From assembly GCF_035634735.1 (NCBI RefSeq), contig NZ_DASQCJ010000002.1, forward strand, positions 5,337 through 69,336: DNA of 64,000 nucleotides, read 5' to 3'. Both the position numbers and the translations under genes were made by a program. Source of the stretch: Cellulomonas sp. Lineage in GTDB: Bacteria > Actinomycetota > Actinomycetes > Actinomycetales > Cellulomonadaceae. The notes beneath the pieces are model-generated. The model was given only the letters and a program-made list of their open reading frames with translations, ran no database searches and had not been told where the DNA came from. Of this stretch, positions 17,683-30,004 are shown in pieces (the stretch's first letter is position 1; each line of letters starts with the position of its first letter).

Positions 17683-20276
<2,594 letters not shown>

Positions 20277-20280
<4 letters not shown>

Positions 20281-20510
20281 AGCAGCGACTTCCGCGGCGT
20301 GACGGCGTAGCCGGCCTCGTCGACGGCGGCGGCGATCGCCTCGTCGGTCAGCGGCGCGTCCGAGATGACGGTCACGGGCGACGACCCGCCGGCGACCAGG
20401 TCGACCTGCACGTCGGTGACGCCGGGCAGCGCGGTGAGCTCCTCGCTCACGTGGCGGACGCAGTTGCCGCAGGTCATGCCGTCGACGGAGAAGCTGGTGG
20501 TCTGGCTCAT
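20277..20510 (-). CDS. copZ: Copper chaperone CopZ (HMA domain)
   Basis: VDGMTCGNC; AVDEAGY. Confidence 0.93.
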
Positions 20511-20542
20511 CGTGGTTCCTCTCGCGGTGCCGGTCGGGGGGT

Positions 20543-20824
20543 TCAGGAGCGGACGAGCCGGGCGATGGCCTCCGAGGCCTCGCGGACCTTCTCGGCGCCG
20601 GCCTCCGGGGACTGCCGGGCCGCGTCGACGACGCAGTGGCCCAGGTGGTCCTCGACGAGGCCGATGCTCACGGCCTGCAGCGCCTTGGTCACGGCGGCGA
20701 CCTGGGTGAGGACGTCGATGCAGTACACGTCCTCGTCGACCATGCGCGCGATCCCGCGGACCTGGCCCTCGATGCGCTTGAGGCGCTTGAGGTAGTCGTC
20801 CTTGTCGCCGCTGTACCCGTGCAT
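20543..20824 (-). CDS. csoR: Copper-sensing repressor CsoR
   Basis: RLKRIEGQVRGI, YCIDVLTQ, HLGHC ligand set. Confidence 0.95.
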   Translation of the reverse strand: MHGYSGDKDDYLKRLKRIEGQVRGIARMVDEDVYCIDVLTQVAAVTKALQAVSIGLVEDHLGHCVVDAARQSPEAGAEKVREASEAIARLVRS

Positions 20825-20876
20825 GTCCGCTCCTTCCGGGCGGGGCGCGACCGCACCCCGTCGTGGTCGGAACGCT

Positions 20877-20893
20877 ATACCCCCTGGGGGTAT
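20877..20893. promoter_or_regulatory. CsoR operator
   Basis: Perfect palindrome ATACCCCC-T-GGGGGTAT upstream of csoR, matching the TAC-C/G-tract-GTA CsoR-type site. Confidence 0.85.
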
Positions 20894-20915
20894 TCCGCGA
20901 GGACCGAGGTCCCGG

Positions 20916-21070
20916 TCAGCCGAGGGCGAGGAAGTCCTCCAGGTAGACCGCGACCTCGGTCAGCGTGGCGGCGTCCGCGTAGCCGGCGCGGCCGGTGACC
21001 GCGACAGCCGGACCCACACGAGCTCGCCGTGCACGAGCGGGTCCACGCCGGTGCCGGGGAGCGTCGTCAC
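20916..21070 (-). pseudogene. MazF/PemK-like toxin remnant (internal deletion plus frameshift)
   Basis: GTG overlaps the antitoxin stop. The N-terminal frame reads ...HGELVWVRL, and a different frame gives the C-terminus ...TGRAGYADAATLTEVAVYLEDFLALG*. Length is 155 nt. Confidence 0.65.
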
Positions 21071-21351
21071 GCGCGGGCCGAGCCGTACGGCGGCTCGCTC
21101 GCGAGCCCGTCCGCGGACACCGCGTCCCATGCCGCGGTCTCACGGCGGTAGGACTCCGCGAGGTCGTCGGAGGTCCGCGCCATCGCCTCGCGCATCGCGG
21201 CGAACCGCTGGTCCCGGAGCCACCGCTCGAAGAGCAGCTCCACGAACGACCCCGCCGTCACGCCCTGCTCGCGCGCCACCCCGTTGATCCGGTCCCGCAG
21301 CTCGGCGTCGATCCTGATCGTCGTCATGGTCATGGTCATGGTCATGGTCAT
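21067..21351 (-). CDS. Ribbon-helix-helix antitoxin (MazE-like)
   Basis: TTIRIDAELRDRINGVAREQGVT RHH pattern; acidic tail YRRETAAWDAVSADGL; five in-frame ATGs at 21351-21327. Confidence 0.75.
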   Translation of the reverse strand: MTMTMTMTMTTIRIDAELRDRINGVAREQGVTAGSFVELLFERWLRDQRFAAMREAMARTSDDLAESYRRETAAWDAVSADGLASEPPYGSARA

Positions 21352-21352
21352 G
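21323..21352. repeat. (GTCATG)5 microsatellite at the antitoxin start
   Basis: Five exact hexamers encoding MTMTMTMTM on the minus strand. Confidence 0.9.
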
Positions 21353-21398
21353 CGTCGAGGATGCGATCGGTATACCGGGTGCGTGGCTGTGCCGGCAC

Positions 21399-21647
21399 CT
21401 ACTCGGCCGGCGACGGCGAGGCGCGGATGCGGGCCGCCCACTCGTCGAGCGTCTCGACCTCGCGCGCGCCGGGGTTCTCCTCGAGCCGGCGGAGCAGCCG
21501 GAAGTCGTCCACCCCGATGAGCACGGCGACCAGCTCGCCGTACCGCCACAGCCCGACCCGCCCGCTCCCGAACGCGACCTCGTTCACCATCGACGCGAGG
21601 TGGGACCGGAACTCCCGCGCCGTCGCTTCCCTCGTGATCGTGTGCAT
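21399..21647 (-). CDS. Phd/YefM family antitoxin
   Basis: TAREFRSHLASMVNEV...RVGLWRYGELVAVLIGVDDF fits the Phd fold pattern. Confidence 0.75.
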   Translation of the reverse strand: MHTITREATAREFRSHLASMVNEVAFGSGRVGLWRYGELVAVLIGVDDFRLLRRLEENPGAREVETLDEWAARIRASPSPAE

Positions 21648-21796
21648 GCCTCGACGCTAGGGCCCGCGAGCGGCGCGACGGCGGTCGTCCACAGGCCGAC
21701 TTCGCGGGTGGCGGCGGTGCTGCGGACGGCTGCCGGTCGACCGCGTCCACGGTGTACCCCGGCGGGGGCGGGGTTCATTCTGAGCTTGAGTACACC

Positions 21797-22019
21797 GGGT
21801 ACGCGGTGTACGCGCGCTCGGAGCGTGGTCTGGTTCTGGTGGGGTACGCGGTGTACGCACGCCGAGAACGGGGTCCGGTTCTGGCGGGGTACGTGGTGTA
21901 CGCACGCCCGAGCGCGGTCCGGTTCTGCTGGGGTACGTGGCGTACGCGCGCCCGAGCGCGGTCCGGTTCTGCTGGGGTACGTGGTGTACGCGCGCTCGGA
22001 ACGGGGTCCGCTTCTGGCG
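21797..22019. repeat. Five tandem 44-45-bp repeats
   Basis: Units start at 21797, 21842, 21887, 21931 and 21975; approximate consensus GGGTACGYGGTGTACGCRCGCYCG...GGTCCGGTTCTGSYG. Confidence 0.9.
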
Positions 22020-22067
22020 GGGCCCCCCGTACGCGTGCCCCGTCGGCCCGCGGCGGCGGCCGCGGGG

Positions 22068-23213
22068 CTAGAGCCCGCTGCGGCGCGCGTACGCGCGGGC
22101 GTCGACGCCGCGCAGGTCGCAGAACTCGCGCACGGGGCCGGTCAGCAGCAGGTCCACGTGGCGCAGGTCGGCCACGGTGCGGGCGCCCAGCAGCGTCATG
22201 ATGTCGCCCACCTGGGTCAGCCAGGACTCGATGCGGGCGACCAGGGCGGCCTCGCCGTCGGTGAGCAGGGTGCGCAGGAAGCCGCCCGCGACGCCGACCG
22301 CGGTCGCCCCGAGGGCGAGCGCCCGGACGACGTCGAGCGGGTGCCGGACGCCGCCGGACGCCAGCAGGTCGACGCCGTCGACGGGCGAGGCGTCGAGCAG
22401 GCCCTCGACGGCGGACTGGCCCCAGGACGCCAGGTAGTCCATGCCGCCGTCCGTGCGGCGGGCGGACTCGATCGCGGTGAAGTCGGTGCCACCGCGGCCC
22501 GAGACGTCGACGGCGGCGACGCCGAGGTCGCGCAGCCGCGCGACGGTGCCGCGGCTCATGCCGGCGCCGACCTCCTTGACGACGACCGGGACGTCCACGC
22601 CGTCGACGATCGCGGCGATGTTGTCGGCCCAGCGCGTGAAGTCGCGGTCGCCCTCGGGCATGACGATCTCCTGCGCAGGGTTCACGTGCACCTGGAGGCC
22701 GTCGGCGCCGAGGATCTCGACCGAGCGGCGCGCCTGGGCGGGCGTGAGGTTCGCGTTGACGTTCGCCAGCACGAAGCCGTCGGGGTTGAGGTCGCGCAGG
22801 ACCCGGAACGACGGGATGGCGGCGGGCTCGCGGTGCAGGATGCCCGTGGACCCGGACGCGATCGGGACGCCGGTCTCGCGGGCGGCGATCGCGAGGGCCC
22901 GGTTGATCGTCGCGGTGTGGGCGGTGCCGCCGGTCATGCCGTTGATGTAGAGCGGCACGGGCCAGTCGAGCACCCGGCCCGTGGCCCGCAGGGACACCCG
23001 CGCGCGGTCGCCCGCGGCGAGCGGGTGGTTCATCGGGCGCACGTGGTCGAAGTCGCTCGGGCCGGGCTCGGCGTGCTGGGCGACGGCCAGGCGGACGTGG
23101 TCGTCCTTGCGGCGGGCGTCCTGCTCGGCGGGCGTCGCGCCGGCGGCGGCCCCGTGCTCGGTCCCGGCCGCCGGCTGGTCCTGACCGGACAGGTGTGCGT
23201 CGTCGCGGGTCAT
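22068..23213 (-). CDS. fni: Type 2 (FMN-dependent) isopentenyl-diphosphate isomerase
   Basis: RKDDHV, INGMTGG, LQVHVNPAQE, VVVKEVGAG, SGRGGTDF, ASGGVRHPLDV. Confidence 0.95.
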   Translation of the reverse strand: MTRDDAHLSGQDQPAAGTEHGAAAGATPAEQDARRKDDHVRLAVAQHAEPGPSDFDHVRPMNHPLAAGDRARVSLRATGRVLDWPVPLYINGMTGGTAHTATINRALAIAARETGVPIASGSTGILHREPAAIPSFRVLRDLNPDGFVLANVNANLTPAQARRSVEILGADGLQVHVNPAQEIVMPEGDRDFTRWADNIAAIVDGVDVPVVVKEVGAGMSRGTVARLRDLGVAAVDVSGRGGTDFTAIESARRTDGGMDYLASWGQSAVEGLLDASPVDGVDLLASGGVRHPLDVVRALALGATAVGVAGGFLRTLLTDGEAALVARIESWLTQVGDIMTLLGARTVADLRHVDLLLTGPVREFCDLRGVDARAYARRSGL

Positions 23214-24337
23214 CGGGCGTCCCCGGCGTCGCACGGCTGCTGGACCCGCAGCGACAGGTGCCGCACGTCGGACAGCTCCCAGTCGCGCAGCATGGGCGCG
23301 AGGTCGGTGTCGGCGTCGACCAGCACGATGCCGCAGTCGCCGCCGCCGGCGCCCGACGACTTGGCGGCCGCGCCGACGCTCTCGGCGGTCTCGCACAGCG
23401 TGCGGAGCGCGGGGGTCTCGATGTCGACGCCGGCGGCGCGGGCGAGGGAGGTGAGCAGGCCGCGGGCGCGGTGGATCTGCGCCTTCGCGGCGGGGGCGTC
23501 GTCGCGCTCGATGGCGTCGGCCAGCGCGTCCACGCACTCCCGGGAGGCGGCGAGGAAGTCGGGGTAGTGGCTCTCCGCGGCCCCCTTGCGGGACTGCATG
23601 CGCTCGACGAGCCGGGTGGTCGACGCGGGGACGCCGGTCCAGCCGACGACGAGGCGCATGGTGCGCGGGGTCGGCAGCCGGCGGACGGACAGGCCGGGCC
23701 AGTCGGCGTCGAGCAGCGCGGACAGCGGCCGCACGGCGCCGGAGGACTCCGCGGCGGCCTGGGCGGTGCGCAGCCAGTCGCGGTCGAGCGCGGCGTACCG
23801 GATCCACCCGCCGTACAGGCTCGCCGCGACGTCGCCGCCGGAGCCCATCGGGTTCACCGCGACGGTCGCGAGCAGCGCGAGCCGCAGCAGCCGCTCGGTC
23901 GGCAGGTCGAGCGCGTAGAACCGATCGAGGGCACGCACGGTGGCCGCGGTGACGGCGGCCGACGAGCCGAGCCCGAACTTCCGGCCCGACTGGTCGTCGA
24001 GCTCGGAGGTGATCGTGATGTCGTAGAAGCCGAGCTCGCGGCCCTGCTCCGCGGCGAACCGCTCCACGACGTCGATGGCCGCGAGCACGTAGTCGAACGG
24101 GCGGCTGTCGTGGTCGAGCACCACGCGGCCGCCGTCCCGCCGCCACACGACCGGCAGCCGGCCGTACTGGTCGGACGCGATGGACCCGGCGCCCTCGGCG
24201 CGCGCGAGCCGCACCGTGACGTGCCGGTCGACGGCGACGAGGACCGCCGGGTAGCCGGCCTCGACGACGGCGTACTCGCCGGCGACGAACAGCTTGCCGG
24301 GGGCGCTGACCTCGATGGGGGCGGTGGGCGTGGTCAC
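23210..24337 (-). CDS. mvaK2: Phosphomevalonate kinase (GHMP)
   Basis: SAPGKLFVAGEYAVVE, KFGLGSSAA, GSGGDVAAS, AAKSSGAGGGDCG. Confidence 0.93.
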   Translation of the reverse strand: MTTPTAPIEVSAPGKLFVAGEYAVVEAGYPAVLVAVDRHVTVRLARAEGAGSIASDQYGRLPVVWRRDGGRVVLDHDSRPFDYVLAAIDVVERFAAEQGRELGFYDITITSELDDQSGRKFGLGSSAAVTAATVRALDRFYALDLPTERLLRLALLATVAVNPMGSGGDVAASLYGGWIRYAALDRDWLRTAQAAAESSGAVRPLSALLDADWPGLSVRRLPTPRTMRLVVGWTGVPASTTRLVERMQSRKGAAESHYPDFLAASRECVDALADAIERDDAPAAKAQIHRARGLLTSLARAAGVDIETPALRTLCETAESVGAAAKSSGAGGGDCGIVLVDADTDLAPMLRDWELSDVRHLSLRVQQPCDAGDAR

Positions 24338-25329
24338 GCGGCACCCCCCGCCGTGACGCGCAGGTCCGGCCCGGGGCGCGCGGTCACCACGCGGCGGGTG
24401 CCGCCCTCGGACAGCGCCGCGGCGACGGCGGGCAGGTCGCGGCCGGCGCACAGCACCTTGACGTTCGGGCCGGCGTCGATGGTCGCCCAGCAGGGCAGGC
24501 CGTCCGCGCGCAGCGCCTGCACCTGGTCCAGCACGCCGACCGTGTGCGCGGTCCAGTACCGGACCGGCGGCCGGGCGCCGAGCATCGTGGCGTGCATCCG
24601 CAGGGCGTTCGACTCGGCGAGCGCGCCCAGCGCGGAGAGGTCGCCGGCGCGCACGGCGTCCAGCATCAGCGCGACGTCCACCTCGGTCGACTCGGTCCAG
24701 GACGGGAAGAACGGGGACGTCTCGACGGTGCGGCGCATGGCCTCGCGCGACGAGATCGACTTGGGGCCGGCGTCCAGCACGACCACCGCCATCGCCGGGT
24801 CGAGCGCGCCGCCGGCCTCGCCGCCGGGGACGGGCTCGGCGAAGGACGTGGCGTCGTCGGTGCCGGCGTGCCACACGACCAGGCCGCCGAACACGGAGCG
24901 CGCCGCCGACCCGGAGCCGCGGCGGGCCAGCCGGGACAGCGCGCGCGGGTCGAGGTCCAGGCCGTACGCGGCGGCCGCGGCGCCGGCGAGCGCGGCGAAC
25001 CCGCTCGCGGACGAGGCCAGGCCCGCGCCGGTCGGCACGGTCGACACCGAGGTGACCGTCGCACGGGCCGACGACCCGGCCAGCGCGCGGACCAGGTCGA
25101 GGAACCGGCGCACGCGCGCGACCTCGCCGTCCGACATCGGCCGGCCGTCGAGCGAGCCGGTGTCCTCGGTCGCGGCGGGGTCGAGCGTCACCGTGGTCGT
25201 GGCGTGGAACGCGTCGAGCGTCAGCGACAGGCTGGACGTCGCGGGCAGCGCCAGTGCCTCGTCGCGCTTGCCCCAGTACTTGGCGAGCGCGATGTTCGCG
25301 TGCGCGACGGCGGTCGCGGAGTCAGTCAT
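24334..25329 (-). CDS. mvaD: Diphosphomevalonate decarboxylase
   Basis: AHANIALAKYWGKRDE, PTGAGLASSASGFAA, RRGSGSAARS, TIDAGPNVKV. Confidence 0.95.
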   Translation of the reverse strand: MTDSATAVAHANIALAKYWGKRDEALALPATSSLSLTLDAFHATTTVTLDPAATEDTGSLDGRPMSDGEVARVRRFLDLVRALAGSSARATVTSVSTVPTGAGLASSASGFAALAGAAAAAYGLDLDPRALSRLARRGSGSAARSVFGGLVVWHAGTDDATSFAEPVPGGEAGGALDPAMAVVVLDAGPKSISSREAMRRTVETSPFFPSWTESTEVDVALMLDAVRAGDLSALGALAESNALRMHATMLGARPPVRYWTAHTVGVLDQVQALRADGLPCWATIDAGPNVKVLCAGRDLPAVAAALSEGGTRRVVTARPGPDLRVTAGGAA

Positions 25330-26348
25330 CCGAGGGGCACCTGGGCGGAGGGGGCGGCGGGGCGCCGCGCGTCGGTCCGGTGCAGCCACGTGCGCGCCGC
25401 TCCCGCGCGGCGCAGGGCAGCGGCGATCGTACCAGCGGACGCCGCGTCGGCCGCGAGCGCCAGCATGCATCCGCCCTGGCCACCGCCCGTGAGCTTGGCG
25501 CCCAGCGCGCCGGCCGCGAGGGCCGCGCCGACCAGCCGGTCGAGCTCCGGGGAGGAGACGCCGAGCTCCGCCAGCGCCCCGTGCGCGCGGGTCATCCGGG
25601 CGCCGAGCTCGGTCGGCCGGTCCAGGGCGAGGTCGTCGACCACGTCCCGGGTGATGGCGCCGAGCTCCGCGACCAGCTCCGCGCCGCGCGCCGGGTGCCG
25701 GTCCCGGAACGACCGGACGTCCGCGACCGCGACCCGGGTCCGGCCGTGCACGCCGGTGTCGGCGACGACGAGGTGCGCGCGCAGGGCGAGGTCGAGCGGC
25801 CGGATCTCCCCGGCCTGGAACCACACCGGCTCGGTCGAGGCGGTGGTGCGGGCGTCGAGCCCGCTGGGGTTGCCGTGCGCGACCCGCTCGCCGACCTGGA
25901 CCAGGTCGAAGTGCTCCTGCGCGGTGAGCGTGCGACCCGCCAGGTCCGCCAGCGCGAGCGCGAGCGCCCCGGCGGTGGCGGCGCTGGAGCCGAGGCCGCG
26001 GGCCGCGGGGATGGTCGACTCGGTGGACAGCACGATGTCGCGGTGCGGCAGGCCGAGGTGGTCGAGCGTCGCCTCGACCGCGGCGACCGGCGCGGCGAGC
26101 TGCTCGGGGGCGTCGGACAGGGCGCCCGAGTACAGGACGGACTCGAGCGCCAGCGGGCCCTCCTCGCGGCGGGCGACGGCGCGCATCGGCAGGCTGGCGA
26201 GCGGCAGCGCGATCGCGGGCTCGCCGTACACGACGGCGTGCTCGCCGACCAGGATCGCCTTCGCGCGCGTGTGCCCCGTCCCCGTGGCGCGCGGGGCGCC
26301 CGGGCCGGTGCTGCGCGGGTTCGAGCTCGAGATGGTCCGACTCCTCAC
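25326..26348 (-). CDS. mvk: Mevalonate kinase
   Basis: AKAILVGEHAVVYGEPAIA, STIPAARGLGSSAA, HGNPSGLD, GAKLTGGGQGG; GTG 26348 overlaps the upstream stop. Confidence 0.93.
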   Translation of the reverse strand: MRSRTISSSNPRSTGPGAPRATGTGHTRAKAILVGEHAVVYGEPAIALPLASLPMRAVARREEGPLALESVLYSGALSDAPEQLAAPVAAVEATLDHLGLPHRDIVLSTESTIPAARGLGSSAATAGALALALADLAGRTLTAQEHFDLVQVGERVAHGNPSGLDARTTASTEPVWFQAGEIRPLDLALRAHLVVADTGVHGRTRVAVADVRSFRDRHPARGAELVAELGAITRDVVDDLALDRPTELGARMTRAHGALAELGVSSPELDRLVGAALAAGALGAKLTGGGQGGCMLALAADAASAGTIAAALRRAGAARTWLHRTDARRPAAPSAQVPLG

Positions 26349-27697
26349 ATCAGGTGGGCGACGAACCACGGGGCCGCGTACAGCGACATGAACTGCACCC
26401 CGAAGTTGACGCCCAACCGGTTCAGCGTGCCGCAGGTCAGCCCGACCAGCAGCACGGCGAAGACGTTGACGAGCCCCGCGTCCAGGTAGGCCAGGAGCAG
26501 GACGAAGACGACGAACAGCGCCAGCACGGCCTCGTGCGGCACGTACCGGGTGACCAGCGCGGTGAGCCGGAACGAGTACCGCACCGCCAGCACGTACGAG
26601 AGCACCAGGGCGAGGGCCCCGCCCACGACCACCGCGACCACGAACTGCGAGGTGGACAGCAGCTGGTGCAGGTTGTTGTCCAGGGTCAGGACGGGCGGCG
26701 CGTTGAACAGCGCGTTCGCGGGGCCGACGGCGACCGGCGACAGCGGGAGCCCGACCGCGAGCAGCGGGATGATCACGCCGGCCAGGTAGGTCGAGTGCGC
26801 CAGCGCGGCCATCGAGGTGATCGCCCGGGACGACCGCTCGGTGGGCTCCTTCGCCCGGGCGCCGGACGCCTCGCCCATGAGCAGCGTCAGGGCGACCGGG
26901 CTGAGGAAGAACAGCGGCGTCGACGCCGCGGAGACCGTCGCCGAGGCGCCGAGCTCGGCGCGGGTCAGCAGCCGCCGCGGGCTGAGCGGCGCGCCCTTCA
27001 GCTCCGACCGCGTGATGACCACCGGCGTGCGGCCGGCGCGGGGGAGCGCGGCCCGCAGCGTCGGGTTGAGCAGCGTCGCCAGGCTGAGCAGCAGCGGGCC
27101 GGCGGTGATCGACAGGAAGAACGACACCGTGATCGTGCCGTCCTCGGGCAGCACGCCGGTCTGCCGGTAGAGCGCCTGCACGCCCTGGAACAGCAGGCCG
27201 AGCGGGATGATCGCCAGCAGCGACAGCACCTTGTTCTTCCCGATCAGCGCCAGGACCACCGCGCCGCCGACGAACAGCAGCGACCCGTACTCCCGGAGCT
27301 GGTCGGCGAACGGCGTGATCGCGCTCGCGATGAGCAGCGCCAGCGGCACCGAGATCAGCGTGCCGACCACCGACCCGGCGGCCATCTTGCGGATCGTCTC
27401 CGCCGCCCGGCCCTCCCGCTTCAGCAGCAGCGCGTGGTCGATCATCGGCGCCGACAGCACCCCGCCGGGCAGGCCGACCAGCGCCGTCGGGATCGAGTTG
27501 GTCAGGTTCAGGGTGACGACGGCGGCGATGAAGAACGCCAGCACGACCTGCGGGTCGGTGCCCGCGAGCACGAGCGCGAGCGTCACGGGCAGCAGCACCG
27601 ACGTCTCGTCGGTGCCGGGGATGAACCCGATCAGCGTGTACAGCGCGACGGCCGCGAGGGCGGCGGCGACCATCGGCAGCAGCAGGGAGAGGTCCAC
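26345..27697 (-). CDS. TctA-like (tripartite tricarboxylate transporter type) permease
   Basis: About 12 TM helices; N-terminal IGFIPGTDETSVLLP and NSIPTALVGLPGG motifs resemble the TctA GxxPG and IPG motifs. Confidence 0.75.
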   Translation of the reverse strand: MDLSLLLPMVAAALAAVALYTLIGFIPGTDETSVLLPVTLALVLAGTDPQVVLAFFIAAVVTLNLTNSIPTALVGLPGGVLSAPMIDHALLLKREGRAAETIRKMAAGSVVGTLISVPLALLIASAITPFADQLREYGSLLFVGGAVVLALIGKNKVLSLLAIIPLGLLFQGVQALYRQTGVLPEDGTITVSFFLSITAGPLLLSLATLLNPTLRAALPRAGRTPVVITRSELKGAPLSPRRLLTRAELGASATVSAASTPLFFLSPVALTLLMGEASGARAKEPTERSSRAITSMAALAHSTYLAGVIIPLLAVGLPLSPVAVGPANALFNAPPVLTLDNNLHQLLSTSQFVVAVVVGGALALVLSYVLAVRYSFRLTALVTRYVPHEAVLALFVVFVLLLAYLDAGLVNVFAVLLVGLTCGTLNRLGVNFGVQFMSLYAAPWFVAHLM

Positions 27698-27792
27698 GGA
27701 GGTCTTTCGGTGCGGGGCGCCCGCCCGGATGGGTGGCGGCGGGTGCGGCGGCTGGCGCGCGGGGGTGGGCGCGCGGCGGGGAGCGGGCGGCG

Positions 27793-28053
27793 TCAGGCCG
27801 GTGGCGGCCCCGCGTCGACGTCCTCGTCGGCCACGATCCGCACGTCCCGCTTGGGCCGGATCAGCGCCATCGCGGCGACGAACCCGACCACGGCACCGCC
27901 GAGGCCCCAGAAGAACTCCGAGGACCCGAGCGCCCGCCCGACGACGACCGCGGCGACCGTGGCGGCCGCCGTGACCGCGAGCGCCAGGACGAGGTCGCGC
28001 ATCGACACGCGGTCGCCCCAGATCTCGACGTACTGCTCGTCGTCGCTGCTCAC
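27793..28053 (-). CDS. Small two-TM membrane protein leading the transporter-mevalonate operon
   Basis: GAGGAGG RBS (28057-28063) before GTG; TAGGGT -10 at 28079-28084; MSSDDEQYVEIWGDRVSMRDLVLALAV... Confidence 0.75.
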   Translation of the reverse strand: MSSDDEQYVEIWGDRVSMRDLVLALAVTAAATVAAVVVGRALGSSEFFWGLGGAVVGFVAAMALIRPKRDVRIVADEDVDAGPPPA

Positions 28054-28281
28054 GTTCCTCCTCGGAGTCCGGACCGCCACCCTAGGACGTCCCCTGCGGG
28101 AAGCCTGTGCGGCGGTTGTGCGCGCGACGTGGACGTGCGGGTCGGAGCGCGGGTGGCCGACGGCCACTGTGGGGTGACCGCCCCCGACGCGGCAACTCGG
28201 GGCGACGCGCCGGGGGCCGACACGCCGAGGGTTCACCCGCTCCGGTGGCGGTGGGCCGAACCGTGCGGACGATGGATGAGC

Positions 28282-29175
28282 ATGAGCGACCAGACGACGC
28301 CCCAGGACCCGCAGACCCAGCACCCGGAGCCGGAGCAGCCGGCCCAGAACATCCCGCACCCCGGTCTCACGGACGACATGCGGCAGCAGCCCGACCACGG
28401 CGAGGAGTCGTACGTCGGCTCCGGCCGGCTCGAGGGCAAGCGCGCCCTCATCACCGGCGGCGACTCCGGCATCGGCCGGGCCGTCGCCCTGGCGTTCGCC
28501 CGCGAGGGCGCGGACGTCGCCATCTCCTACCTCCCGGACGAGGAGGAGGACGCGCAGGAGACCGTGCGGCTGGTCGAGGACGCCGGCCGCCGCGCGCTGA
28601 CCCTGCCCGGCGACATCCGCGACGAGGCGTTCTGCGCGCAGCTCGTCGAGCGCACGGTCGCCGAGCTCGGCGGGCTCGACGTGCTCGTCAACAACGCCGC
28701 GTTCCAGATGTCCCAGGAGAACGGGCTGCTGGACCTCACGACCGAGCAGCTCGACCGCACGTTCAAGACCAACCTGTACGCGATGTTCTGGATCACCAAG
28801 GCCGCGCTCCCGCACCTGCAGCCGGGGTCGAGCATCATCAACACCACCTCGGTGCAGGCCTACGAGCCCAGCCCGCAGCTCATCGACTACGCGACCACCA
28901 AGGCCGGCATCCTCAACTTCACGAAGGCGCTGGCGCAGCAGGTCGCCGAGCAGGGCATCCGGGTCAACGCCGTGGCGCCGGGGCCGATCTGGACCCCGCT
29001 GATCCCGGCGACGATGCCGGCGGAGAAGGTCAAGGAGTTCGGCGCGGACACCCCGCTGGGCCGCGCGGGCCAGCCGGCCGAGCTGGCCCCGGCGTACGTG
29101 TTCTTCGCGAGCCAGGAGAGCAGCTACATCACGGGCGAGCGCATCGGCGTCACGGGCGGCCGCTCGCTGGCCTGA
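28282..29175 (+). CDS. SDR family oxidoreductase (YghA/general-stress type)
   Basis: TGGDSGIG, NNAA, YATTK, PGPIWT. Confidence 0.93.
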   Translation: MSDQTTPQDPQTQHPEPEQPAQNIPHPGLTDDMRQQPDHGEESYVGSGRLEGKRALITGGDSGIGRAVALAFAREGADVAISYLPDEEEDAQETVRLVEDAGRRALTLPGDIRDEAFCAQLVERTVAELGGLDVLVNNAAFQMSQENGLLDLTTEQLDRTFKTNLYAMFWITKAALPHLQPGSSIINTTSVQAYEPSPQLIDYATTKAGILNFTKALAQQVAEQGIRVNAVAPGPIWTPLIPATMPAEKVKEFGADTPLGRAGQPAELAPAYVFFASQESSYITGERIGVTGGRSLA

Positions 29176-29184
29176 CGCTCCCTC

Positions 29185-29260
29185 CGCCGAGTTCGGCACC
29201 TCTGCACCCAGTTCGGCACCTCCAGGTGCCGAACTGGGCAGCGGAGTGCCGAACTCGGCG
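29185..29260. repeat. Nested double-palindrome element (GTTCGGCAC family)
   Basis: Outer arms CGCCGAGTTCGGCAC / GTGCCGAACTCGGCG; inner perfect hairpin CCCAGTTCGGCACCT-CC-AGGTGCCGAACTGGG; lies between convergent genes. Confidence 0.85.
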
Positions 29261-30004
29261 TCAGCCCGCGAGGGTGCGGGCGCGGAGCAGGACCGCGTCG
29301 AGCATCTCCTCCGTCAGGCGGCCGGTGAAGGTGTTCTGCTGGCTCACGTGGAAGCAGCCCAGCAGGGTCAGGCGCTCGCCGGTCGCCGGGCGGTCCAGGA
29401 CGACCTCGGCGCCGTGGCCGAACCGCGGGCGCGGGCGCGGCACCGCCCAGCCCTGCTCGCCGAGCGTCCGCAGCAGCGCGTCCCAGCCGAACGCGCCCAG
29501 CACCAGCGCGACCCGCGGCCGGACGAGCTCCAGCTCGCGCGCGAGCCACGGCCCGCACCGGTGCCGCTCCTCGGGCAGTGGCTTGTTGTCCGGTGGCGCG
29601 CAGTGCACCGGCGCGGTGATCCGGACGCCGGTCAGGGTCAGCCCGTCGCCGGCGTGCGTCGACGTGGGCTGGGACGCCATGCCGACGCGGTGCATCGCGG
29701 CGAACAGGAAGTCGCCCGACCGGTCGCCGGTGAACATCCGGCCCGTCCGGTTGGCGCCGTGCGCGGCGGGCGCGAGCCCGACGACCAGCACGGGTGCCGC
29801 GGGGTCGCCGAAGCCGGGCGCCGGCCGGGCCCAGTACTCCTGGTCCCGGTAGGCGGCGCGCTTCACGGTCGCGACGTGCTCGCGCCAGGCGACGAGCCGC
29901 GGGCAGGCGCGGCACTCGACCACGGCGCCGTCGAGCTCGGCGAGGTCGCGCGCGCCGGGCGCGGTCGCGGCGGGGAACCCGGGGTCGTCGGGCAGCGCGG
30001 GCAC
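29261..30004 (-). CDS. udgB: Family 5 uracil-DNA glycosylase (Fe-S)
   Basis: [39 protein letters not shown]-terminal HVSQQNT. Confidence 0.92.

What the first reader, a model, noticed from the sequence alone, without database searches (positions are those of the whole stretch)
22068..28084. Candidate mevalonate uptake/salvage operon: small membrane protein + TctA-like permease + lower mevalonate pathway only
Seen: six co-oriented minus-strand genes behind one promoter-like region (TAGGGT -10, GAGGAGG RBS). They are an 86-aa two-TM protein, a 450-aa TctA-like permease, mvk, mvaD, phosphomevalonate kinase and fni. The last five are chained by 4-nt stop/start overlaps, including permease to mvk. 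No HMG-CoA synthase or reductase follows fni; a repeat array and TA remnants do. Known: Streptomyces-type MVA clusters run mvk-mvaD-pmk-fni-hmgr-hmgs, most actinobacteria use the MEP pathway, and TctA proteins are carboxylate permeases that usually work with TctB/TctC. Inference: the permease imports mevalonate (a carboxylate) and the four enzymes convert it to IPP/DMAPP. That would be a dedicated isoprenoid-precursor scavenging system, and I know of no characterised transporter of this kind.
Basis: partly seen in the sequence, partly recalled or inferred. Interest (0 to 1): 0.85.

Follow-up and report, generated by a model that had tools for sequence, protein, structure and literature searches.

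The report
Candidate mevalonate import and salvage operon
A Cellulomonas operon joins a two-part membrane permease to the four enzymes that turn mevalonate into isoprenoid building blocks, and the same pairing in dozens of other bacteria points to this permease family as a bacterial mevalonate importer, for which I found no published gene.

Summary
Six co-oriented minus-strand genes lie at 22068-28053: an 86-aa two-helix protein, a 450-aa TctA-family permease, mvk, mvaD, pmk and fni. The last five are chained by 4-nt overlaps. No HMG-CoA synthase, HMG-CoA reductase or thiolase lies in the 64-kb window.

- In 79 of 80 species-level genomes that carry this permease (Actinomycetota, Bacillota, Mollicutes-like), the small gene and the permease sit next to mvk-mvaD-pmk. 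The 80th contig ends 274 nt after the permease.
- The family is small and discrete. Exhaustive phmmer found 189 hits among 1.84 billion representatives.
- More distant members sit beside either mevalonate kinase operons or a lone class II HMG-CoA reductase (Achromobacter, Anaerococcus). Mevalonate is the one metabolite both enzymes use.
- Seven of eight carriers listed in a published pathway census have a full MEP pathway plus MVK and DPMD but no HMGS or HMGR. One has a complete MVA pathway.

Best reading: a binding-protein-independent, two-subunit mevalonate importer that feeds a lower-MVA salvage route. All evidence is computational. Whether this particular strain lacks hmgS and hmgR elsewhere in its genome could not be tested.

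The parts
28105..28138 (-). Conserved GCAC-rich block upstream of the -10-like element. Possibly an operator or a -35 region.
   Evidence: Alignment of 15 Cellulomonas upstream regions. Function is inferred only.
28079..28086 (-). CCTAGGGT, a -10-like element (TAGGGT).
   Evidence: Invariant in 15 of 15 Cellulomonas upstream regions. The sigma-70 consensus scan did not detect it.
28057..28063 (-). GAGGAGG ribosome-binding site, 3 nt before the GTG start.
   Evidence: Read. The GGAG core is conserved in the alignment.
27793..28053 (-). Small subunit, 86 aa, with two predicted transmembrane helices (residues 22-38 and 49-65). Motif: IE(I/V)W(G/N)D-V-x3-DL, TM1, LF(W/F)GLGG-V-GF, TM2, PKR.
   Evidence: Found in 78 of 80 loci by tblastn. 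Its stop overlaps or abuts the permease start in most non-Cellulomonas loci. Alignment A3 shows invariant W12, D14, G50, G57, F58, P67 and R69. No Pfam family. Homologous to the 160-aa partner in the Achromobacter HMGR operon: hhalign probability 97.4%, E = 1.2e-11. Hydropathy.
26345..27697 (-). Large subunit, a TctA-family (DUF112) permease of 450 aa. Proposed mevalonate importer.
   Evidence: PF01970 at 93.4 bits. Identity is 52-66% across phyla, making it the most conserved gene of the module. AlphaFold2 model is all-helical, pLDDT 80, pTM 0.80. No PDB relative by sequence or by fold. Only 189 phmmer hits among 1.84 billion representatives.
25326..26348 (-). mvk, mevalonate kinase. Its start overlaps the permease stop (GTGA).
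   Evidence: TIGR00549 at 235.8 bits. Overlap read.
24334..25332 (-). mvaD, diphosphomevalonate decarboxylase (ATGA overlap).
   Evidence: TIGR01240 at 303.7 bits.
23210..24337 (-). pmk, phosphomevalonate kinase of the Gram-positive type (GTGA overlap).
   Evidence: TIGR01220 at 423.6 bits.
22068..23213 (-). fni, type 2 isopentenyl-diphosphate isomerase (ATGA overlap). Last gene of the operon.
   Evidence: TIGR02151 at 327.7 bits.

Best explanation
The two membrane proteins form a binding-protein-independent, two-subunit secondary transporter that imports mevalonate. One is an 86-aa hairpin subunit. The other is a divergent TctA-family permease.

The transporter is made from the same transcript as mevalonate kinase, and the permease and kinase genes are translationally coupled. 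Imported mevalonate would therefore be phosphorylated at once, which traps it in the cell. PMK, MDD and IDI-2 would then carry it to IPP and DMAPP.

In most carriers this is a salvage route that runs beside a complete MEP pathway. In a minority it supplements a complete MVA pathway.

Shown here: gene identities, operon anatomy, conserved synteny, and the link of family members to mevalonate-using enzymes. Taken from the published census: the correlation with the MEP-plus-lower-MVA genotype.

Inferred: the substrate, the direction of transport, ion coupling, the physical complex between the two subunits, and the absence of the upper pathway in this strain.
For: 1. Synteny. In 79 of 80 species-level loci from at least two phyla, the small gene and the permease lie next to mvk-mvaD-pmk(-fni). 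In 68 loci mvk follows directly downstream on the same strand; the tblastn gap is 0-132 nt in 67 of them and 729 nt in one (L030). In 11 loci the arrangement is convergent. The one remaining contig ends 274 nt after the permease. No other flanking gene is conserved.

2. Cassette behaviour. In Enterococcus carriers the two genes sit between the pentapeptide-repeat gene and mvk. That position is empty in E. faecalis, which has the full pathway.

3. Family-wide association with mevalonate enzymes. Exhaustive phmmer found only 189 relatives. Reps P0214, P0216 and P0224 (38-45% identity) are again followed by mvk operons. Reps P0223, P0227 and the P0228 cluster (34-36% identity) sit in operons with HMG-CoA reductase: Anaerococcus, a JGI metagenome contig of unknown organism (L099), and Achromobacter/Delftia/Comamonas. 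The Anaerococcus and Achromobacter reductases match TIGR00532 at 483 and 426 bits; the 297-aa reductase fragment beside P0227 matches only the NADPH-type model TIGR00533, at 215 bits, below its 441.8 cutoff. MVK and HMGR share only mevalonate as a substrate.

4. The small subunits of the MVK-linked and HMGR-linked clades are homologous.

5. Genotype. A. naeslundii, A. oris, A. slackii, A. viscosus, C. glyciniphilum, C. uberis and E. wangshanyuanii are carriers. PMC10663253 Table S1 scores each of them as full MEP plus MVK plus DPMD, with no HMGS or HMGR. Achromobacter spanius and A. xylosoxidans are scored as full MEP plus a lone HMGRII. Such cells make no mevalonate, so the substrate must come from outside.

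6. dxr and ispG lie 1.5-6 kb from the module in five Actinomyces loci.

7. Permease identity co-varies with the MVA enzymes: r = 0.84-0.88.

8. Contigs from metatranscriptome runs span the small/permease, permease/mvk and mvk/mvaD/pmk junctions. This is weak evidence, because DNA may be present in those libraries.
Against: - There is no transport, labelling or genetic evidence of any kind.
- One carrier type (L084, A. respiraculi) has HMGS, thiolase and HMGR right beside the permease and no MEP pathway. Import is not obligatory there.
- Some family members lie beside glpK, beside a thiolase/HMGS-like/DUF35 trio, beside CoA-transferase/hydratase/HMG-CoA-lyase-like genes, or beside nothing informative. 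Substrate range may vary across the family.
- The upper pathway could not be searched for in this strain's whole genome. C. taurus has a complete MVA pathway in two operons. A C. hominis-labelled genome has a permease-less lower operon.
- Only the best 80 of 173 genomic relatives were inspected.
- The census genotypes rest on KOfam thresholds set by others.
Confidence: 0.78

Rival explanations
1. The module belongs to a complete MVA pathway in this strain. hmgS, hmgR and a thiolase would lie elsewhere in the genome, as in Gram-positive cocci and C. taurus. The permease would then only supplement endogenous mevalonate, and the operon would not be a salvage-only system. This rivals only the 'lower pathway only' part of the finding, not the transport function.
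For: C. taurus has an incomplete MEP pathway plus a complete MVA pathway in two operons about 1 Mb apart. The A. respiraculi-type carrier L084 combines the permease with HMGS, thiolase and HMGR. A C. hominis-labelled genome has an additional kind of lower operon. Splitting the upper and lower operons is normal in Firmicutes (E. gallinarum L083, E. faecalis L082).
Against: Seven of eight carriers with a published genotype lack HMGS and HMGR and have a full MEP pathway. C. taurus is not among the 14 Cellulomonas carrier loci. The nine other Cellulomonas species in the census are MEP-only. No upper-pathway gene lies in the 64-kb window.
Confidence: 0.27
2. The permease imports a different small hydroxy- or carboxylic acid (for example HMG, glycerate or another C5-C6 branched acid), or is a general carboxylate permease. 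Its linkage to MVA genes would then reflect co-regulation or co-transfer rather than substrate supply.
For: The Pfam family is named for tricarboxylate transport. Some distant members lie beside glpK or beside CoA-transferase/hydratase/lyase genes. Substrate cannot be read from sequence.
Against: Linkage holds in 79 of 80 loci and persists through rearrangements, both tandem and convergent. It recurs with a second, unrelated mevalonate-using enzyme, HMGR. In lower-only genomes the adjacent kinase has no internal substrate source. All other MVA intermediates are CoA esters or phosphates.
Confidence: 0.1
3. The permease is an exporter, acting as an overflow or detoxification valve for mevalonate or a pathway intermediate.
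For: Microbes that overproduce mevalonate do secrete it (yeast, PMC11532745, listed). In L084 the pair follows hmgS on the same strand.
Against: Most carriers, and the HMGR-only Achromobacter, cannot make mevalonate, so they have nothing to export. Coupling to the kinase gene favours capture of an incoming substrate.
Confidence: 0.04
4. The two membrane proteins are not a transporter. They would act as a membrane anchor, sensor or regulator for the MVA enzymes.
For: No solved structure or assay exists for any close relative. The small protein has no known family.
Against: The match to the TctA permease model covers the full length. The predicted structure is a large, all-helical membrane protein. 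The family pairs with soluble enzymes of two different kinds, which fits substrate supply better than scaffolding.
Confidence: 0.03

Closest known systems
TctABC tripartite tricarboxylate transporter (TTT family; Pfam TctA PF01970, TctB PF07331, TctC PF03401)
   Same: The large subunit matches the TctA model over its full length. NCBI names it a 'tripartite tricarboxylate transporter permease'. A small membrane protein is encoded just upstream. The presumed substrate is a carboxylate.
   Different: No TctC binding protein is conserved nearby. The small partner has 2 TM helices rather than 4 and matches no TctB model. Single-sequence phmmer does not reach the bulk of TctA proteins: 189 hits in 1.84 billion representatives. 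The proposed substrate is a monocarboxylic dihydroxy acid.
Gram-positive mvaK1-mvaD-mvaK2-fni operon (e.g. Enterococcus faecalis, L082)
   Same: Same four enzymes, the same order and tight coupling.
   Different: E. faecalis has no permease pair upstream and makes its own mevalonate with MvaS and MvaE. Most permease carriers have the MEP pathway and no HMGS or HMGR.
Streptomyces-type MVA cluster mvk-mvaD-pmk-fni-hmgr-hmgs (L081)
   Same: Same lower-pathway genes in the same order. mvaD is about 61% identical.
   Different: In Streptomyces, hmgr and hmgs follow fni and there is no transporter. In this window a repeat array follows fni and a transporter precedes mvk.
Mevalonate catabolism of Pseudomonas mevalonii (mvaA class II HMGR and mvaB lyase). 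From my own memory, unverified here: an inducible mevalonate transport activity was described biochemically in the 1980s.
   Same: Relatives of the permease pair are operonic with a class II HMGR (matching TIGR00532, the model NCBI names 'degradative') in Achromobacter and Anaerococcus. This is the context in which mevalonate must be imported.
   Different: The window's operon is anabolic (kinase route to IPP), not catabolic. I found no gene assigned to the Pseudomonas transport activity.
Molecularly defined mevalonate transporters in eukaryotes: mutant MCT1 and evolved yeast Jen1 Y180C/G (PMC12405511)
   Same: The proposed function is the same: carrier-mediated mevalonate import.
   Different: These belong to an unrelated superfamily (MFS), and were obtained by mutation or directed evolution rather than occurring naturally.
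TRAP transporter membrane unit DctQ/DctM
   Same: Analogy only: a small membrane subunit encoded before a large permease subunit of a carboxylate importer.
   Different: No sequence or fold match was obtained. TRAP systems need a binding protein.

Membership tests
TTT / TctA family (Pfam PF01970) | Large subunit matches the TctA HMM above the gathering score over most of its length. | tested here: met
   93.4 bits against 28.9; residues 11-431 aligned to model positions 2-417 of 423.
TTT / TctA family (tripartite system) | TctB-type small subunit (PF07331, about 4 TM helices). | tested here: not met
   The window protein has no Pfam hit at E <= 0.01. TctB is not among the 25 listed of the 33 families that matched 37 orthologues at E <= 5. 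Two TM helices are predicted.
TTT / TctA family (tripartite system) | TctC extracytoplasmic binding protein (PF03401) encoded with the permease. | tested here: not met
   No conserved extra gene lies within +/-10 kb in the 80 loci. Precomputed Pfam lists for L084, L092, L094 and L098 show no PF03401. A TctC encoded elsewhere is not excluded. One lies 8 kb away in the Achromobacter locus L101.
TTT / TctA family | Transports tricarboxylates such as citrate. | not testable with these tools
   Needs uptake assays.
Classical lower mevalonate pathway | Mevalonate kinase, phosphomevalonate kinase, diphosphomevalonate decarboxylase and IDI-2 equivalogs are all present. | tested here: met
   TIGR00549 at 235.8, TIGR01220 at 423.6, TIGR01240 at 303.7 and TIGR02151 at 327.7 bits. 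All are above their cutoffs.
Complete mevalonate pathway | HMG-CoA synthase and HMG-CoA reductase in the same locus or window. | tested here: not met
   tblastn with class I and class II HMGR, thiolase and two HMGS queries gave no hit in the window or in the 80 loci. The positive control on L084 worked.
Complete mevalonate pathway | HMGS and HMGR anywhere in this strain's genome. | not testable with these tools
Proposed mevalonate-transporter family (small subunit plus TctA-like subunit) | The gene pair lies adjacent to an enzyme that uses free mevalonate (MVK or HMGR). | tested here: met
   The window and 79 of 80 loci are MVK-linked. P0214, P0216 and P0224 are also MVK-linked. P0223, P0227 and the P0228 cluster are HMGR-linked.
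Proposed mevalonate-transporter family | Small subunit carries the E(I/V)W(G/N)D...PKR signature. | tested here: met
   Alignment A3. hhalign to the Achromobacter partner gives probability 97.4%.
Proposed mevalonate-transporter family | Mevalonate transport activity. | not testable with these tools
   Needs experiments.

The most novel reading that the evidence does not exclude
A small, discrete two-subunit branch of the TctA superfamily is the bacterial mevalonate transporter, for which no gene has been named in the literature I could search. Joined to mvk-mvaD-pmk-fni, it forms a natural, horizontally mobile mevalonate-salvage module. That module would let MEP-pathway bacteria make IPP from mevalonate released by their neighbours or host. 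Carriers include oral Actinomyces, Corynebacterium, Propionibacteriaceae, some Enterococcus and this Cellulomonas clade. It would bypass the Fe-S enzymes IspG and IspH, and it would bypass fosmidomycin-type inhibition. Joined to a class II HMGR, the same transporter would feed mevalonate catabolism in Achromobacter, Delftia, Comamonas and Anaerococcus.
Probability: 0.7. Interest if true: 0.85.

Novelty: new variant of a known kind. Interest (0 to 1): 0.8.

Why it matters
I found no published gene for bacterial mevalonate uptake, although mevalonate feeding has been used for decades to rescue mutants and engineered strains. Engineers have had to evolve a yeast transporter to obtain a mevalonate importer (PMC12405511).

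A natural importer would have several consequences:
- It would explain the puzzling 'partial MVA pathway' genotype seen in many MEP bacteria. This pattern is visible in the census table of PMC10663253, whose main text does not mention salvage or scavenging.
- It predicts mevalonate cross-feeding in oral, gut, insect and soil communities.
- It predicts a bypass of MEP-targeting drugs such as fosmidomycin in carriers.
- It would give metabolic engineers a ready-made uptake part.
- It assigns a function to a divergent TctA/DUF112 clade that works without a binding protein.

Tried and rejected
- Motif scan for HMGR and HMGS in all ORFs. It found nothing, but the HMGR motif did not cover class I enzymes, so I replaced it with tblastn using real sequences from Streptomyces and E. 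gallinarum plus a positive control.
- PDB search by sequence and Foldseek search of the AlphaFold2 model. No meaningful match, so no structural analogy could be drawn.
- Rfam scan of 20500-29500. Only chance-level hits; no riboswitch or leader RNA.
- Sigma-70 and terminator scan. No promoter call. The one terminator-like site lies inside the permease gene and I judged it a chance match.
- Pfam scan of 37 small-subunit orthologues at E <= 5. Only scattered noise; TctB is not among the 25 of 33 matching families that were listed.
- Laying the strain's own contigs (run X1) on reference loci that carry HMGS/HMGR (L081) or the second Cellulomonas operon (L100). The whole-genome question for this strain stays open.
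- A protein-database search with an HMGS query, intended to find a Cellulomonas HMGS. I did not run it, because only the best 120 hits are listed and Streptomyces homologues would fill the list.
- E. coli Dxr, IspG, IspH and Dxs queries against the window. No MEP gene lies in the 64 kb.
- Literature searches for a bacterial mevalonate transporter, uptake, salvage or catabolism gene. Nothing relevant. The 'tcta' hits were primer sequences.
- I considered that cluster 11 of the flank analysis might be a TctC. It is a set of ABC ATPases.

Full report
**What is in the window**

The window has about 76% G+C. Its closest relatives are Cellulomonas of the hominis/pakistanensis group, whose permeases are 96-98% identical.

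Reading the minus strand and listing ORFs gives six co-oriented genes:
- a small ORF, 28053-27793 (GTG start, 86 aa);
- a permease, 27697-26345 (450 aa);
- mvk, 26348-25326;
- mvaD, 25332-24334;
- pmk, 24337-23210;
- fni, 23213-22068.

The four enzyme identities pass NCBIfam equivalog cutoffs: TIGR00549 at 235.8 bits, TIGR01240 at 303.7, TIGR01220 at 423.6 and TIGR02151 at 327.7. The permease matches Pfam TctA over its full length, 93.4 bits against a cutoff of 28.9. The small protein matches no family.

The permease/mvk, mvk/mvaD, mvaD/pmk and pmk/fni junctions are 4-nt overlaps (GTGA, ATGA, GTGA, ATGA). A 95-nt gap without a terminator-like site separates the small gene from the permease.

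Upstream of the small gene, CCTAGGGT is invariant in 15 of 15 Cellulomonas sequences, and a GCAC-rich block sits just before it. A conserved promoter or operator region ahead of the first gene is therefore plausible, although the sigma-70 consensus scan finds nothing.

Downstream of fni lie a 44-bp x 5 tandem repeat, a weak Phd/YefM-like ORF, and a csoR-copZ-copA copper cluster. Upstream lies a divergent SDR gene.

No HMGS, HMGR (class I or II) or thiolase is detectable in the 64 kb. No dxr, ispG, ispH or dxs is detectable either.

**Is the permease linked to mevalonate genes elsewhere?**

I scanned one genome per species (GTDB) with an alignment of the permease. The scan found 173 relatives, and the best 80 loci were fetched with 10-kb flanks. 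They come from:
- Actinomycetota: Cellulomonas, Corynebacterium, Pseudoclavibacter, Actinomyces, Ancrocorticia, Tessaracoccus, Propioniciclava and other Propionibacteriaceae;
- Bacillota: a set of Enterococcus species, Carnobacterium, Desemzia, Isobaculum, Tissierellia and [Clostridium] ultunense;
- Mollicutes-like genomes.

tblastn with the six window proteins shows the mvk operon adjacent in 79 of the 80 loci. In 68, mvk follows directly downstream on the same strand; the gap is 0-132 nt in 67 of these and 729 nt in one (L030). In 11 the arrangement is convergent. The one remaining contig ends 274 nt after the permease.

The small protein is found in 78 of 80 loci. Outside Cellulomonas its stop usually overlaps or abuts the permease start. 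It has a conserved signature, E(I/V)W(G/N)D...LF(W/F)GLGG.V.GF...PKR, and two predicted helices.

All-against-all clustering of flank ORFs found no other gene conserved across taxa. In particular there is no binding protein and no upper-pathway gene.

The permease is the most conserved member of the module. Its median identity outside Cellulomonas is 59%, against 43-49% for the enzymes. Its pairwise divergence tracks that of the enzymes, r = 0.84-0.88.

In Enterococcus carriers the two genes sit between a pentapeptide-repeat gene and mvk. In E. faecalis, which has no permease, those two genes are adjacent. The pair therefore behaves as a discrete two-gene cassette.

**How big is the family, and what do distant members sit next to?**

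Exhaustive phmmer against 1.84 billion 50%-identity representatives found only 189 hits at E <= 1e-3. All the organisms above collapse into one representative cluster. This is a small, discrete branch that single-sequence search does not connect to the mass of canonical TctA proteins.

I looked up the genomic context of ten of the more distant full-length representatives. Nine were looked up directly; the tenth, P0228, through cluster member P0512:
- P0214 (45% identity) is followed by mvk and an MVD-like gene.
- P0216 (39%) and P0224 (38%) are followed by mvk-mvaD-pmk-fni.
- P0223 (34%, Anaerococcus) lies in an operon with a sigma-54 activator, AtuA and a class II HMG-CoA reductase.
- P0227 (36%, a JGI metagenome contig of unknown organism) is followed by a 297-aa HMG-CoA reductase fragment.
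- The P0228 cluster (35%; Achromobacter spanius, A. xylosoxidans and A. mucicolens, Delftia, Comamonas thiooxydans) lies in the order HMG-CoA reductase, 160-aa small protein, permease.
- P0213 lies beside glpK.
- P0215 lies beside a thiolase/HMGS-like/DUF35 trio.
- P0220 lies among CoA-transferase, hydratase and HMG-CoA-lyase-like genes.
- P0218 (archaeal) has no informative neighbour.

The Anaerococcus and Achromobacter reductases score 483 and 426 bits on TIGR00532. The fragment beside P0227 matches only the NADPH-type model TIGR00533, at 215 bits, below its 441.8 cutoff. The Achromobacter small protein is homologous to the window's small protein: hhalign probability 97.4%, E = 1.2e-11.

Mevalonate kinase and HMG-CoA reductase are unrelated enzymes, and the only metabolite they share is free mevalonate. 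Free mevalonate is also the only MVA intermediate that is neither a CoA ester nor a phosphate, so it is the only one likely to cross a membrane on a carrier. This is the strongest argument for the substrate.

**Salvage or supplement?**

A published census of isoprenoid genes (PMC10663253, Supplementary Table S1) scores seven permease carriers as having a complete MEP pathway plus MVK and DPMD, with no HMGS, HMGRI or HMGRII:
- Actinomyces naeslundii, A. oris, A. slackii and A. viscosus;
- Corynebacterium glyciniphilum and C. uberis;
- Enterococcus wangshanyuanii.

A. viscosus was identified only from the JGI locus-tag prefix avisC.

The other twelve enterococci in the table have HMGS and HMGRII and lack a complete MEP pathway. 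Achromobacter spanius and A. xylosoxidans are scored as full MEP plus a lone HMGRII.

My own tblastn places dxr and ispG 1.5-6 kb from the module in five Actinomyces loci.

One carrier is different. In an A. respiraculi-type genome (L084) the pair lies between thiolase/HMGR/HMGS on one side and the lower operon on the other. The census scores that species as MVA-complete and MEP-less.

The family is therefore mostly, but not only, found where the cell cannot make mevalonate. In those cells transport must be inward.

**This strain**

I could not search its whole genome.

The indirect evidence points both ways:
- Nine Cellulomonas species in the census are MEP-only.
[quoted passage not shown] It does not appear among my 14 Cellulomonas carrier loci.
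- A genome labelled C. hominis carries a different lower operon, with PMK 67% identical to the window's, and no permease.

I put the chance that this strain lacks hmgS and hmgR at roughly 0.7.

**Mechanism proposed**

Shown here or taken from the census:
- the gene content of the operon;
- translational coupling of permease and kinase;
- conserved pairing of the small and large membrane proteins;
- association with mevalonate-using enzymes;
- association with genotypes that cannot make mevalonate (from the PMC10663253 census).

Inferred:
- The small hairpin protein (N-in, C-in by the positive-inside rule) and the TctA-like protein form one secondary transporter that works without a binding protein.
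- It imports mevalonate, with unknown ion coupling.
- MVK traps the imported mevalonate as the 5-phosphate.
- PMK, MDD and IDI-2 then deliver IPP and DMAPP for undecaprenyl phosphate, menaquinone and carotenoids.

Contigs from three ant-metagenome metatranscriptome runs (about 95% identical to the window) span several gene junctions. This is compatible with one transcript. It is weak evidence, because such libraries can contain DNA.

The AlphaFold2 model of the permease is confident (pLDDT 80, pTM 0.80). It has no relative among solved structures by sequence or fold, so I draw no structural analogy.

**Comparison with what is known**

At Pfam level the large subunit belongs to the TctA family. 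The two other defining parts of a tripartite tricarboxylate transporter, TctB and TctC, were tested and not found. I therefore file the system as a divergent TctA-superfamily transporter, not as a TTT system.

The enzyme half is a standard Gram-positive-type lower MVA operon.

I found no paper that names a bacterial mevalonate transporter gene or describes a natural mevalonate-salvage operon. PMC12405511 states that bacterial import systems exist, but it discusses only the mutant mammalian MCT1 and an evolved yeast Jen1 as defined transporters. The library does not hold most subscription journals, so an older or paywalled report cannot be excluded.

**Verdict**

The transport link is strong on comparative evidence. 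The salvage-only status of this strain is untested. I rate this a new functional variant within a known transporter superfamily, of high interest to isoprenoid biochemistry, microbiome cross-feeding, MEP-targeted antibacterials and metabolic engineering.

Noticed in passing
window 21797-22022: A 44-bp unit repeated 5.1 times (86% matches) lies directly downstream of fni. The unit occurs nowhere else in the window (5 matches against 0.01 expected, all within the array), and its 21-nt core has no exact match in any of the 101 fetched loci. Related contigs in runs X15-X17 skip 39 nt at 21802-21842, which suggests copy-number variation.
   Followed up: partly
window 21067-21750 (21323-21352 and 21399-21647): A weak Phd/YefM-like antitoxin ORF (23.7 bits, below the Pfam cutoff). 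Beside it is a perfect (GTCATG)x5 hexamer repeat that would encode MTMTMTMTMT on the minus strand. No toxin partner was identified.
   Followed up: partly
window 17683-20824: A copper-homeostasis cluster on the minus strand: a CsoR-type repressor (20543-20824), a CopZ-like HMA protein (20277-20510) and a CopA P-type ATPase (17683-20280).
   Followed up: partly
window 28105-28138: A GCAC-rich block (GCACGTCCACGTCGCGCGCACAACCGCCGCACAG) is conserved across Cellulomonas upstream of the invariant CCTAGGGT. It may be an operator for an unidentified regulator of the operon.
   Followed up: partly
L084 5668-16549 (GCA_011751985.1, Actinomyces respiraculi type): A complete MVA supercluster: HMGR, thiolase, HMGS, small protein, permease, fni, pmk, mvaD, mvk. 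It sits between the rseP-side genes and proS. In A. naeslundii, A. oris, A. israelii and A. stomatis the corresponding neighbourhood holds dxr and ispG followed by the salvage module. This looks like an in-place swap of MEP genes for MVA genes.
   Followed up: partly
L100 7990-12137 (GCA_977007775.1, labelled Cellulomonas hominis): A second kind of Cellulomonas mvk-mvaD-pmk-fni operon. Its PMK is 67% identical to the window's and is closest to Microbacteriaceae. It has no small protein or permease upstream.
   Followed up: partly
L101 6152-10689 (Achromobacter) and L097 851-8778 (Anaerococcus): Relatives of the permease pair are operonic with a class II HMG-CoA reductase. In Achromobacter the operon also has an NMO-like gene and a divergent GntR-type regulator. 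In Anaerococcus it also has AtuA, an AtuA-ferredoxin, a sigma-54 activator and rpoN. These are candidate mevalonate catabolic operons.
   Followed up: partly
PMC10663253 Table S1, row 1394, versus rows 1382-1393: Enterococcus wangshanyuanii is scored as having a complete MEP pathway and no HMGS or HMGR. All the other listed enterococci are MVA-complete. A clade of Enterococcus seems to have switched its isoprenoid pathway while keeping the lower MVA operon plus the permease.
   Followed up: no
L052, L059, L061, L080 (Tissierellia / [Clostridium] ultunense) and L092: Some carriers lack fni next to the operon. In L080, pmk is displaced about 3 kb. L092 (P0214) has only mvk and an MVD-like gene after the permease, which could indicate a variant lower pathway.
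   Followed up: no
P0130 (570 aa): One database protein, 93% identical to the Pseudopropionibacterium-type permease, is about 115 aa longer than its relatives. It could be a fusion of the small subunit and the permease, or a read-through caused by sequencing error.
   Followed up: no
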